This document shows positions 61,181 through 64,000 of a stretch of 64,000 bases of DNA, piece after piece; positions within the stretch are counted from its first letter, which is position 1, and each line of letters opens with the position of its first letter. The notes beneath the pieces are model-generated. The model made no database searches and was not told the origin of the DNA. It was given only the letters and a program-made list of their open reading frames with translations. Location: assembly GCF_009914755.1 (NCBI RefSeq), contig NC_060939.1. One strand, written 5' to 3'. This DNA is from the human T2T-CHM13v2.0 reference genome, Homo sapiens. Both the position numbers and the translations under genes were made by a program.

Positions 61181-62206
61181 TTACATGCAAAGCACCCAGC
61201 CTGCAAGCAGACAGTTTCCCTCCCCAGCGCGGGCTGAGCCCCCGAAAACATTGGAGTTTCACAAATTCCTCTTTATGATGGTGACTTATGCCTGACCCAC
61301 CCTCCTCTTGGGGGGTCCTTCTTTGAGGGGCTGAGGCAGGTGGGCCTGCTGGCTCCAGCATGTTCCTTACCTCCCATGAAGTACCATGTACATGGTGCAG
61401 TCTAGGCTATGAAGTCCACTGGGCTACCCCACCATTACCCTCGGTTCCCATGACGGGGGTGCCAGAGTGGCCCAGGGGCAGCAGGGCTGTGGGAGACAGA
61501 GGGAGAGCCTGCCACAGCCTCCTCTCCAGTGACCACCTGGCGGCTCAGCTGACAGGATAGTCACAGCTGCTCAGGTCACCCTGGTCACCGGAGCATGCTG
61601 GGTGGGAGAACCACTCCCTGCAAGAGCGAAAAGCTGAGAACACTGCCAACCGTGCTGGCACCCCTGAGCCAGCCCGCCGCTGCAGAGAGCCCTCTACAAA
61701 GAGCCCGCTCTGTGCTGACGGAGGCTGGAACCTGGGGAAATCTGGCTCAGGGCTGCTTGCTGGGGCCCAGGGTGGGGTGGGGCTCCACCCCTGCCCTGGG
61801 ATGACTGTGGGTGAAACAGGACCCTGACTTGCAGGCCCCAGTCTGAGGTGGAGGGAGGGGGCCCAGACCAACCTCACCCGAATGTTAGGATAACAGGAAT
61901 TTCCCGCCAGGATGAGGCTGGCACTGGTTTCGGTTCTGTCCTGGGTGGAGGGGGAGGTCAGTAGTGGACTCTCCAATCAGTGGGGCCTTCACGGGCTCTG
62001 GTCGGAAGTTCCCACACACCCCCATCAGGAGGTCTGACTCCGGCCACCTCCTGCCTTGCCTGAGCCTGTCCTGCTCGTGGCCCTCCCCTTCTAAGCCTGT
62101 CTGAACACCCCTACCTTGGGGACCCCTCCTGTGTCTTCCTTCTCCAGGAAGCCCCTCTGATCCTCCCCCTCAGAGCTCTAGCCCTCCTCCAAGCTCCATC
62201 CCTGCC

Positions 62207-64000
62207 CTATCCCAGCCTTCCTATACAGCCCCACAAGTCAAAAAATCGTGACTAAAATGAAATATCTCCCTGACAAAAAACTAAAAAAAAAAAAAAAGAC
62301 ACTGAAGTCTCAATTAAGACTAAAAAAAATTAAAAAAAAATAAAGTATCCTTTTTAAAAGTGGCCACTGTAAAGCCTCCAAAACCCATTCCATTAACTTA
62401 AAAAACAAAAAAACCTATATAAGTAAATCAGTGGCCACTACCAAAACACAAACTAAAAACTTTACACTTATTAACAAAAAAATTTAAAAAAAAATTGAGC
62501 CTTCATTTTCGCCTTAAAATTCTCCTATGTTTATAATTCAAAAAAAAAAAAAAATCCAACAAATGACACATACTAACCAACTTAAAAGCATTAATGCCGT
62601 AATTCAACCCATGGAGAGTCTCCAACCTGAGTTGCCCTCTCAGGCCATAATCCCCCAAAATTGGCCTTTAATTATAATTAATCTAAAAGATTACTTTTTT
62701 ACCATTCTTCTGACAAAACAAAATTTAAAAAAATTTACTTTTACTATACCAGCCATAAATAATAAAAAACCAGCCACCAGGTTTCAGTAAAAAGTGTTAC
62801 GTCAAAAAATACTTAATAGTCCAACTATTTGTCAAACTTTTTTGTAACTCAAACTCTTCAACCAGTTAAACACAAGTTTTCAAACTGTTATTCATTATAT
62901 TAATAATATTTTGTATACTACAAAAACAAAAACAAATTAACTATTACACATTTCTACAAGCAAAGGTTACCAACACAAGACTGACAATAATATCTAATAA
63001 AATTCAAACCTCTAATCCTTTCCATTACTTAAAAATGTAAGTTAAAAAAAACCACAAAAAATAAAAATTAAACATTAAAAACATTAAATAACTTTCAAAA
63101 ATTACTAAAAAATATTAAACTCGGCCAACTCTAGACATCCCTACTTATGCCATGTCAAATTTGTTCTCTATCTTAAAAAAAAATCCAAAATTAAATAATG
63201 AACATTAACTCCAAAGACAACTAAAAAAATTAATTAAAAAAAGTTCAGTCAACCCAAATAAATAAAATGAATCACTTAGCCCCACTCCAACTTTTAATTT
63301 TTACTACTACACATTCTCCAACAGACATTATTGTTCAAAATACAAATCTTATGAAGTGGTCCTTCCTTCCTTACAGCACAATTAAGACTTACATTGTACT
63401 TAAATCAAATGACTACATTAATTAGACAAAACTACAAATAATAAAATTATATAAAAATAACCCAAATAAAATAATTGTTCCTTTAAACAAAAAACAAATT
63501 AAACAAGCCTTTATCAATTCTGGAATATAACAAATTGGTCTTACTAATTTTATAAAAAATTATTGACAATCATTACCCAAAAACAAAAATCTTCCAGTTT
63601 TTAAAATTGACTACTTAAATTTTACCTAAAATTACCAAACATAAACCTTTAAAAAATACTCTAACGGTGTTTACTAATAGTTCCAACAATAAAAAAACAA
63701 CTTACACCAGACCAAAAAAACAAGTCATTAAAACTCAATGTCACTTAACTCAAAAAACAAAATTAGCTACTGTCATTACAATATTACAAAATTTTAATCA
63801 GCCTATTAACATTGTATCAAATTCTACATATATAATACAAACTACAAAAAAAGTTAAAACAGCCCTAATCAAATATCAAATATAATCAGTTAAACCAACT
63901 ATTTAATTTGTTACAACAAACGGTAAAAAAAAAAATTTCCCATTTTATATTACTCATATTCAAACACACACTAATTTACCAAGGCCTTTAACTAAAACAA
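62207..64000 (+). mobile_element. HERV-K(HML-2) proviral fragment (end of pro/G-patch, RT, RNase H), G-to-A hypermutated, 5'-truncated, runs off the window
   Basis: Recognisable HML-2 motifs: YSPTSQKI (G-patch start), GTATCCTTTTT pro/pol overlap, [42 protein letters not shown] at 62896-62907 (from YIDD) and FTNSSNNK (from FTDGSSNG). No LTR or gag lies upstream. Confidence 0.93.

What the first reader, a model, noticed from the sequence alone, without database searches (positions are those of the whole stretch)
62207..64000. Near-saturated APOBEC3-type G-to-A hypermutation of a HERV-K(HML-2) pro-pol fragment
Seen: the + strand is stripped of G (none at all in 63061-63120) while C is retained. 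Against the HML-2 consensus as I recall it, most changes are G>A. RT YIDD becomes YINN (62896-62907), LPQGM becomes ...CAA AAA ATA, RNase H FTDGSSNG becomes FTNSSNNK, AQRAEL becomes TQKTKL, and Trp TGG becomes TAA. Established: strand-specific G>A is the footprint of APOBEC3 deamination of minus-strand cDNA during reverse transcription. Inference: this virus was lethally edited before it integrated in the germline, making it a fossil of host restriction. An HML-2 fragment at 15q25.2 is catalogued as far as I recall; I cannot tell whether this degree of editing has been described.
Basis: partly seen in the sequence, partly recalled or inferred. Interest (0 to 1): 0.85.

Follow-up and report, generated by a model that had tools for sequence, protein, structure and literature searches.

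The report
Extremely hypermutated, rearranged HERV-K fossil
An ancient HERV-K retrovirus fragment on chromosome 15 lost about 70% of its G bases to A on one strand before it entered the genome, a very heavy footprint of host antiviral DNA editing, and its inverted layout suggests that a faulty viral DNA copy was inserted.

Summary
Window 62207-64000 is the start of a 3.48-kb HML-2 fragment (end of pro, all of pol, start of env) that runs to about 65690, past the window end.

- **Editing level:** against 20 natural HML-2 copies, 68-71% of reference G are A. Counts are G>A 352-467, A>G 17-37 and C>T 32-73.
- **Context:** only 27 of 455 G>A sites are at CpG. Preference is GA 0.90 > GG 0.75 > GC 0.65 > GT 0.42, unlike the A3G-type (GG) footprint of the two published hypermutated HML-2 proviruses, which lose 7-13% of G in my control.
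- **Timing:** 437 edits are shared with two chrY duplicates. Flanks compared with an empty-site paralogue show no G>A excess, so editing preceded insertion.
- **New findings:** the fragment abuts an inverted LTR arm that is edited on the same chromosomal strand (about 30% of G). The 4.15-kb unit replaced 28-32 bp of host DNA without a target-site duplication.

Best reading: APOBEC3-family deamination of an aberrant reverse transcript that was then inserted non-canonically. The locus is catalogued as 15q25.2, but I found no description of its editing. It is a new variant of a known kind.

The parts
62207..64000 (+). In-window part of the edited internal arm of an HML-2 element, in viral sense on the + strand. 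The whole arm is 3484 bp and continues OUTSIDE the window to window-equivalent about 65690. The out-of-window part holds the rest of RNase H (to 64028), the integrase remnants (64038-64757) and the Rec/env N-terminal and SU part (64817-65569). It is followed by the inversion junction at 65691-65696, which lies in an A9/T9 homopolymer pair. After that comes an inverted LTR arm at 65697-66353 (- strand): the first 660-690 bp of an HML-2 LTR, ending at the canonical LTR terminus next to host DNA, with about 30% of G on the chr15 + strand edited.
   Evidence: Collinear BLAST to 20 natural HML-2 copies, L011 1207-4690, and inverted hits at L011 4696-5353. G>A 352-467 and 68-71% of reference G. Homology starts at 62207. 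Domains come from Pfam on natural copy L024, mapped. LTR arm against 14 LTR copies: G>A 39-47, A>G 6-14, C>T 7-15, T>C 3-18. The terminus is shared with 8 of 8 LTR copies shown, and the junction is shown.
62227..62348 (+). Remnant of the G-patch at the end of the pro reading frame. The protease core (RVP) lies upstream of the truncation and is absent.
   Evidence: Pfam G-patch and RVP on natural copy L024, mapped through the pairwise alignment.
62536..63043 (+). Reverse transcriptase domain remnant, with YIDD read as YINN at 62896-62907.
   Evidence: RVT_1 on L024, mapped. The edited piece 62518-62790 itself scores only 18.6 bits, below the 29.6 cut-off.
63655..64000 (+). RNase H domain remnant. 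It is cut by the window end; the domain maps to 63655-64028.
   Evidence: RNase_H on L024, mapped. The edited piece 63619-63885 scores 16.6 bits, below the 25.8 cut-off.
62204..62209 (.). Left insertion junction, host to viral pro. It has a 3-nt overlap (CTA) shared by the host paralogue and the virus, and there is no LTR at this end.
   Evidence: Empty-site paralogue L048.

Best explanation
The feature is a fossil of lethal cytidine deamination of HERV-K(HML-2) reverse-transcript DNA. The enzyme was most likely one or more APOBEC3-family members that prefer 5'-TC on the deaminated strand, not A3G alone.

While the viral DNA was single-stranded, about 70% of the C on the strand that is now the chr15 minus strand were converted to U in the pro-pol-env arm. 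About 30% were converted in an adjoining LTR arm. After copying, these read as G>A on the chr15 + strand.

The edited DNA was not a normal provirus. It consists of an LTR U3 piece joined head to head with an inverted internal segment. It entered the germline as one 4.15-kb unit, with one canonical LTR terminus and one microhomology junction. It deleted 28-32 bp of target DNA and made no target-site duplication.

It was later copied, together with its flanks, from chr15 to chrY.

What is shown: the spectrum, the sequence context, the confinement of editing to the insert, sharing among the three copies, the inverted structure, and the missing host bases.

What is inferred: the identity of the enzyme, that the rearrangement arose during reverse transcription, and the route of insertion.
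For: 1. The spectrum is strand-specific. Against 20 natural copies: G>A 352-467, A>G 17-37, C>T 32-73. Ordinary copy pairs are balanced.

2. The changes are not CpG decay. 27 of 455 G>A sites are at CpG, and in the LTR arm 37-42 of 39-47 are non-CpG.

3. Editing depends on the neighbours that deaminases read. In the internal arm: GA 189/209, GG 120/160, GC 89/137, GT 57/136, and a C at +2 is disfavoured (GCC 0.29, GTC 0.11). The LTR arm shows the same ranking at sub-saturation: at +2, A 20/39 and T 13/30 against C 3/39. Purified A3A, A3F and A3H prefer TC flanked by A or T and disfavour G (PMC7026630, abstract and passages).

4. Editing stops at the insert boundaries. Flanks against the empty-site paralogue show G>A 0 and 3 in the first 250 bp. 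Over about 1 kb on each side, G>A is 10 and 15 against A>G 16 and 8.

5. It was a single old event. At 437 of the 633 L014-G columns compared all three copies read A, which covers most of the 455 G>A sites on chr15. Later changes are balanced.

6. The method recovers the published cases. L016 (chr21) has G>A 86-91, of which 63-65 are at GG. L020 (chr3) has 47-52, of which 33-35 are at GG. That is 13% and 7% of G, matching the A3G attribution for 21q21.1 and 3q21.2 in passages of PMC7007669 and PMC4379556.

7. The structure and insertion are aberrant. The LTR arm is inverted and its terminus is canonical. In the paralogue the two flanks lie 32 bp apart, and there is no duplication at the insert.
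Against: - The GC context is edited as often as GA in the LTR arm (15/36 against 15/34). No modern human A3 that I recall prefers 5'-GC, so the enzyme assignment is loose. AID or an ancestral enzyme may have contributed.
- 70% loss of G exceeds the highest loads reported in a vertebrate-wide screen. Something beyond ordinary single-round editing may therefore be needed.
- Editing of the LTR sense strand is not what canonical minus-strand editing predicts.
- The empty site is a 89-90% identical paralogue, not an orthologue. The 28-32 bp difference could be an independent indel.
- No ape or monkey orthologue could be examined.
Confidence: 0.85

Rival explanations
1. A canonical provirus was hypermutated in the usual way and integrated by integrase. 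A later chromosomal inversion plus deletions produced the present layout. The C>T changes on the LTR sense strand would come from editing of displaced plus-strand strong-stop DNA, which becomes the 5' LTR.
For: - The LTR arm ends at the exact canonical terminus, as integrase joining would give.
- The internal arm shows no sense-strand C>T (32 against T>C 46), as expected if only displaced strong-stop DNA was exposed.
- Plus-strand C>T in HERV-K copies has been remarked on before (PMC1781480, discussion passage).
Against: - It needs at least three breakpoints, one of them within 28-32 bp of the original host junction, and loss of the target-site duplication.
- The LTR arm shows no sense-strand G>A at all. 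On the chr15 + strand this reads as C>T 7-15 against T>C 3-18. The rest of the genome is 70% edited.
- In the one canonical A3G-type provirus checked, the 5' LTR has no extra C>T: 2 sites against 2 over 804 bp.
Confidence: 0.2
2. The changes are reverse-transcriptase misincorporation under a biased nucleotide pool (low dCTP), with dTTP placed opposite G in the nascent strand. No deaminase was involved.
For: - One nascent strand carrying C>T throughout would also explain why both arms are changed on the same physical strand.
- The GA preference was historically attributed to this mechanism (recalled, not seen here).
Against: - There is a strong two-position context. At +2, A or T gives 43-51% against C 8%. 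This matches flank preferences measured for purified A3 enzymes.
- Since 2002-2003 G>A hypermutation of retroviruses has been attributed to APOBEC3 (established knowledge).
- HERV-K is restricted and edited by A3B, A3F, A3DE and A3G in cell assays (PMC2531183 passages; PMC1781480).
Confidence: 0.05
3. The editing happened after integration on exposed chromosomal single-stranded DNA, as a kataegis-like cluster at a rearrangement or as transcription- or replication-associated deamination.
For: - Both arms are edited on the same chromosomal strand even though they are inverted relative to each other.
- An inversion junction lies between them.
Against: - Editing stops at both host junctions. G>A is 0 and 3 in the adjacent 250 bp, and there is no excess over 1 kb.
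- 70% saturation over 3.5 kb is far denser than any chromosomal cluster I know of (recalled).
- No asymmetric change has accumulated since the chr15-chrY duplication.
Confidence: 0.03
4. The deaminase was AID, or AID together with an A3, rather than A3 enzymes alone. AID is expressed in germ cells and mutates the related betaretrovirus MMTV.
For: - GCA (10/17) and GCT (5/7) are edited as well as GAA and GAT in the sub-saturated arm. On the deaminated strand these are TGC and AGC, part of AID's WGCW hotspot (recalled).
- A paper on an MMTV antagonist of AID appeared in a search listing (PMC6692512, listing and abstract start only).
Against: - AID's other hotspots, WAC (GTA and GTT on the + strand), are the least edited: 1/8 and 2/9, and 0.44 and 0.40.
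- GA contexts, which are not AID sites, are the most edited.
Confidence: 0.1

Closest known systems
The two published hypermutated HERV-K(HML-2) proviruses, 3q21.2 and 21q21.1 (Lee 2008 and Armitage 2008, neither held here; cited in PMC7007669 and PMC4379556, passages seen)
   Same: They are in the same virus group and are also germline fossils with strand-specific G>A and many premature stops. Both are attributed to APOBEC3 editing before integration.
   Different: - In my control on the loci I take to be these (L020 and L016; the identification from chromosome and position is my inference), only 7% and 13% of G are changed and the changes sit at GG.
- Here 68-71% of G are changed, with GA > GG > GC > GT.
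- Those two are LTR5Hs proviruses. This locus is listed as LTR5B, is shared with orangutan, is rearranged, and lacks a target-site duplication.
Ultra-edited ERVs of Knisbacher and Levanon 2016 (PMC4866542, section 8 read in full)
   Same: It is the same kind of object: an ERV copy in which G>A forms the majority of mismatches to an unedited relative.
   Different: - Their maximum is 392 G>A in a 4304-bp alignment (zebra finch ERVL), and their maximum in primates and rodents is 234 sites.
- Here there are 455 G>A in 3467 aligned bp plus 42 in the 656-bp LTR arm.
- I could not read their supplementary lists, so this locus may be among their 44 human elements.
Ex vivo restriction of reconstituted HERV-K by A3F and A3B (PMC1781480 and PMC2531183, passages)
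   Same: Editing there falls in the GA context by TC-preferring enzymes acting on HERV-K DNA. That is the dominant context here.
   Different: Those papers found no matching genomic footprint. [quoted passage not shown] Lee 2007 says that the genomic patterns do not match A3F. This locus supplies a GA-dominated genomic example, but with an added GC component.
Catalogue entry HML-2 15q25.2 with duplicates Yq11.23a and Yq11.23b (Subramanian 2011, PMC3228705, table passages)
   Same: It is the same locus going by chromosome band, orientation (+), size class (3345 bp listed) and the two chrY duplicates. It is listed as shared down to orangutan, and the Y copies are listed as a duplication after the chimpanzee/orangutan split.
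   Different: The paper contains no occurrence of 'hypermut', 'APOBEC' or 'G to A'. The listed span is shorter than the 3484-bp arm plus the 657-bp LTR arm found here. I could not lift hg19 coordinates over to this assembly.

Membership tests
HERV-K(HML-2) provirus fragment | Collinear nucleotide homology to recognised HML-2 proviruses across pro-pol-env | tested here: met
   L011 1207-4690 is collinear with 20 of 20 natural copies. Raw identity is 75.8-81.1%, and 86.4-93.4% once G>A sites are set aside.
HERV-K(HML-2) provirus fragment | Betaretroviral domain order with HERV-K-specific Rec and env | tested here: met
   Natural copy L024 carries RVP, G-patch, RVT_1, RNase_H, Integrase_Zn, rve, IN_DBD_C, HERV-K_REC and HERV-K_env_2. 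The chr15 arm aligns from the G-patch to env_2. The edited sequence itself scores below the Pfam cut-offs.
HERV-K(HML-2) provirus fragment | Associated LTR5-type LTR | tested here: met
   The 657-bp arm matches the LTRs of HML-2 proviruses and many solo copies and shares their terminus. The 5B label comes from tables in PMC5027517 and PMC4379556, not from a test made here.
APOBEC3-hypermutated endogenous retrovirus | Large excess of G>A over C>T and over A>G on the viral plus strand | tested here: met
   455 against 32 and 24 versus L014. The same holds against all 20 of 20 references. p = 2e-156.
APOBEC3-hypermutated endogenous retrovirus | The excess is not explained by CpG decay | tested here: met
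   27 of 455 G>A sites are at CpG. C>T at CpG is 5 of 33.
APOBEC3-hypermutated endogenous retrovirus | Dinucleotide context of a known A3 enzyme (GA or GG) | tested here: inconclusive
   GA is the top context (0.90) and GG the next (0.75). However, GC is edited at 0.65, and in the LTR arm GC equals GA.
APOBEC3-hypermutated endogenous retrovirus | Editing confined to retroviral DNA, meaning it is pre-integration | tested here: met
   Flanks against the empty-site paralogue show no G>A excess.
APOBEC3-hypermutated endogenous retrovirus | Edits shared by orthologues in other primates | not testable with these tools
   No primate genomes are on hand. As a substitute, all three copies (chr15 and both chrY duplicates) read A at 437 of the 633 L014-G columns compared.
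A3G-type hypermutant (as 3q21.2 and 21q21.1) | GG is the preferred context | tested here: not met
   GG is 0.75 against GA 0.90 in the saturated arm. In the sub-saturated arm GG is 9/42 against GA 15/34. The controls show GG dominance.
Canonically integrated provirus | Short target-site duplication flanking the insert | tested here: not met
   The paralogue shows 28-32 bp of host sequence in place of the insert, and there is no duplicated host bases at the two junctions.
Canonically integrated provirus | LTR termini at both ends, in direct orientation | tested here: not met
   There is only one LTR terminus. The other end lies in pro. The LTR is inverted relative to the internal genes.

The most novel reading that the evidence does not exclude
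The insert may be the copy of one continuous, mis-primed single strand.

1. Plus-strand DNA started normally at the polypurine tract, so its 5' end is LTR base 1.
2. It ran about 690 bases into U3.
3. It then jumped onto a plus-sense viral template in env and copied it backwards through pol into pro.
4. The resulting chimera carries no polypurine tract, so it could not prime a second strand. It stayed single-stranded far longer than normal and was deaminated almost to saturation. The U3 part was paired for a while and was edited less.
5. It was finally captured at a chromosomal break.

If this is right, it would be a preserved example of restriction acting on a dead-end reverse-transcription product. 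It would also be a GA-type (non-A3G) footprint on HML-2, which cell-culture work predicted but genome surveys did not report.
Probability: 0.3. Interest if true: 0.72.

Novelty: new variant of a known kind. Interest (0 to 1): 0.6.

Why it matters
APOBEC3-edited ERV fossils are direct evidence that host restriction acted on ancient germline infections. For HML-2 the literature I could read names only two such proviruses, both moderately edited and both with the A3G footprint. Cell assays, by contrast, find A3F and A3B to be the stronger restrictors.

This locus shows three things.

1. **A far heavier load.** Its editing load is five to ten times heavier than in those two proviruses, and higher than the maxima quoted in a vertebrate-wide screen.
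2. **A different footprint.** The footprint is dominated by GA, not GG. This bears on the mismatch between cell assays and genomic footprints.
3. **An aberrant structure.** Editing lies on one physical strand across an inversion, and the insertion is non-canonical. Heavily edited, aberrant reverse transcripts can therefore still reach the germline by a route other than normal integration.

There is also a practical point. The edited element scores below Pfam cut-offs and is mostly unmasked in the hub's repeat list, so such fossils may be under-counted.

Tried and rejected
- **Post-integration chromosomal editing.** Rejected because the flanks are clean against the paralogue.
- **CpG decay.** Rejected.
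- **Gradual accumulation.** Rejected because of sharing with the chrY copies and the balanced later changes.
- **Autointegration as the source of the inversion.** Considered and set aside by reasoning. The inversion junction lies inside U3 and inside env, not at an LTR terminus.
- **L1-mediated retrocopy.** Set aside because there is no poly(A) tail or duplication at either junction.
- **Excess small deletions as a signature of uracil repair.** The arm has 37-38 deletions against 3-6 in most control pairs. This is probably not a repair signature. The chr15-chrY comparison shows that indels still arise about twice as fast in the A-rich arm as in the flanks (22 in 3450 bp). Slippage after insertion is therefore enough to explain them.
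- **An editing gradient along the arm.** None was seen: 0.63-0.84 in the internal arm and no trend in the LTR arm.
- **Literature.**
  - Lee 2008 and Armitage 2008 are not held.
  - Anwar 2013 was found only as a citation.
  - The Knisbacher supplements could not be read.
  - The Ito 2020 supplements hold no per-locus ERV list.
  - Searches for 15q25.2 or Yq11.23 together with APOBEC or hypermutation terms found no description of this editing.
- **Earlier findings of this scan.** These were closed to the session.

Full report
**1. What is there**

The window is T2T chr15:81964001-82028000 (hub note; confirmed). From 62207 the + strand changes abruptly from GC-rich host DNA to A-rich, G-poor sequence.

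I fetched 10 kb around the window end as L011, where window position equals L011 position plus 61000. I also fetched 20 natural HML-2 copies from the same genome. BLAST gives the layout:
- L011 1207-4690 (window 62207-65690) is collinear with HML-2.
- L011 4696-5353 matches the LTR region of the same copies in inverted orientation.

Domain mapping through the natural copy L024 (Pfam; mapping) shows that the collinear arm starts at the G-patch at the end of pro. It then covers reverse transcriptase, RNase H and integrase, and ends in the SU part of env. So only half of the feature lies in the window.

**2.

I built no consensus. Every count is pairwise against a single natural copy.

| Measure | Result |
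|---|---|
| G>A against the 20 copies | 352-467 |
| A>G | 17-37 |
| C>T | 32-73 |
| T>C | 46-71 |
| Share of reference G read as A | 68-71% |
| Against closest copy L014 | G>A is 455 of 654 substitutions |
| Identity to L014 outside G>A sites | 93.4% |
| Composition of the arm | 196 G in 3484 bases, against 678-715 in 3683 for normal copies |
| Longest G-free run | 127 bases |

Compared with L024 there are 27 new stop codons, and 18 of 24 Trp codons are stops.

Controls behave as expected. Ordinary copy pairs are balanced. The chr21 and chr3 loci, which I take to be the published A3G hypermutants, show G>A 86-91 and 47-52, concentrated at GG. That is 13% and 7% of G.

**3. Context**

- Only 27 of 455 G>A sites are at CpG.
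- By the following base, the edited fraction is GA 189/209, GG 120/160, GC 89/137 and GT 57/136.
- A C two bases downstream is disfavoured (GCC 0.29, GTC 0.11), whereas GCA is 0.95.
- There is no gradient along the arm: 0.63-0.84 in 250-bp bins.

**4. Timing**

Two chrY loci are collinear with chr15 over 9.5 kb and are 99.96% identical to each other.
- At the 633 columns compared where L014 has G, all three copies have A at 437 and all three have G at 160.
- Substitutions since the duplication number 59-60 in 3450 bp and are balanced.
- Flank divergence between chr15 and chrY is 2.6-3.3%.
- This fits the catalogue statement that the Y copies arose after the chimpanzee/orangutan split and that 15q25.2 is shared with orangutan (PMC3228705, table and footnotes).

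**5. The LTR arm is edited on the same chromosomal strand**

I compared the arm with 14 independent LTR copies, all read in chr15 + orientation.
- G>A is 39-47, against A>G 6-14, C>T 7-15 and T>C 3-18.
- About 30% of G are changed, and 37-42 of the changes are outside CpG.
- Fisher test against C>T gives p = 2e-9.

Because this arm is inverted, the deaminated strand is the LTR sense strand. The LTR antisense strand, which is the usual target, shows no excess.

At this sub-saturated level the motif is clearer:
- The following base is A (15/34) or C (15/36) rather than G (9/42) or T (3/29).
- The next base is A (20/39) or T (13/30) rather than G (6/33) or C (3/39).

The arm ends at the same terminus as all 8 LTR copies aligned. 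Its identity to the best LTR copy outside G>A sites is about 94% (derived), similar to the internal arm.

**6. Insertion site**

Searching the two flanks in the genome found one paralogue, at chr15:75.72 Mb, 89-90% identical. There the flanks are only 32 bp apart.

The alignment shows that the 4.15-kb unit replaces 28-32 bp of host sequence:
- At the pro junction, 3 bases are shared between host and virus.
- At the other junction, the LTR terminus meets host DNA directly.
- There is no target-site duplication.

Using the paralogue to compare the flanks, G>A is 0 and 3 in the nearest 250 bp. There is no excess over 1 kb on either side. Editing is therefore confined to the inserted DNA.

**7. 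Interpretation**

The data fit deamination of single-stranded viral DNA before insertion. TC-preferring APOBEC3 enzymes are the leading candidates, for two reasons:
- GA is the top context.
- The flank preference (A or T favoured, G on the deaminated strand disfavoured) matches purified A3A, A3F and A3H (PMC7026630).

The equally strong GC context is not explained. AID or an ancestral specificity may contribute.

The layout, the single LTR terminus, the missing duplication and the same-strand editing suggest that an aberrant reverse transcript was inserted as one unit.

A more specific model is that one continuous strand began as plus-strand DNA at LTR base 1 and switched to copy a plus-sense template backwards from env. 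This would account for the inversion, the terminus, the absence of a second-strand primer site and the extreme editing. It remains an inference, which I put at about 0.3.

The main structural rival is a canonical hypermutated provirus that was rearranged later. It needs several breakpoints, one of them almost exactly at the host junction. It also needs sense-strand LTR editing, which the one canonical control does not show.

**8. Comparison with the literature**

- Passages in PMC7007669, PMC4379556 and PMC2531183 name only 3q21.2 and 21q21.1 as hypermutated HML-2. They attribute the footprint to A3G and state that GA and GT footprints are not evident in genomic copies.
- PMC1781480 reports that A3F restricts the reconstituted virus about 50-fold, whereas A3G does so only marginally.
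- PMC4866542, section 8, gives 392 G>A in 4304 bp as the most edited element found, and 234 sites as the maximum in primates and rodents.
- This locus has 455 plus 42 G>A sites.
- Three searches combining the locus names with APOBEC or hypermutation terms found nothing.
- Lee 2008, Armitage 2008 and Anwar 2013, and the Knisbacher supplements, could not be read. Prior listing therefore cannot be excluded.

**9. Limits**

- No primate orthologues could be examined.
- The empty site is a paralogue, not an orthologue.
- Cytoband names for the reference loci are my inference from chromosome and position.
- Enzyme preferences beyond those quoted are recalled.
- The counts pooled over 14 LTR references are pseudo-replicated, so I rely on the per-reference rows.

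Noticed in passing
L049 = G000:C6:61824862-61826383: Another HML-2 pol fragment has a moderate G>A excess: 56-62 against A>G 11-18, with G at 225 of 1522 bases. It may be a further, milder hypermutant.
   Followed up: partly
L058 = G000:C19:55831524-55833045 and L015 = G000:C3:75606900-75612900: Both show a mild G>A bias. L058 has 41-43 against 23-25. L015 carries A where L017 has G at 71 sites, against 32 the other way.
   Followed up: no
window 62207-65690 (L011 1207-4690): The edited arm has 37-38 short deletions (about 190-216 bp in total) relative to related copies, against 3-6 in most control pairs. Indels between chr15 and chrY run at 6.4 per kb here, against 2.5-3.4 per kb in the flanks. 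This is probably slippage in the A-rich sequence created by editing.
   Followed up: partly
L048 = G000:C15:75720001-75724500: This is an older paralogue of the host flanks (89-90% identity) that lacks the insert. It serves as an empty site. Only about 1 kb on each side is shared.
   Followed up: yes
L011 6360-6800 (window-equivalent 67360-67800, outside the window): A 440-bp segment downstream is present in dozens of chr15 loci and on chrY at 89-97% identity. That marks a boundary of the segmental-duplication family of this region.
   Followed up: no
L012, L013 = G000:C24:24606001-24616000 and 26226001-26236000: The two chrY copies are 99.96% identical over 9.9 kb. Both match on the + strand in this assembly, whereas the hg19 catalogue lists them on opposite strands.
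   Followed up: no
L060/L061 = G000:C3:128621800-128624300 and 128630300-128632800: In the A3G-type chr3 provirus, the 3' LTR carries 8 extra G>A relative to its 5' LTR over 804 bp. This suggests unequal editing of the two LTRs.
   Followed up: no
window 62207-64000: According to the hub's list, only 63541-63664 of this retroviral stretch is repeat-masked. The edited RT and RNase H pieces fall below the Pfam cut-offs. Heavy editing hides the element from routine annotation.
   Followed up: partly
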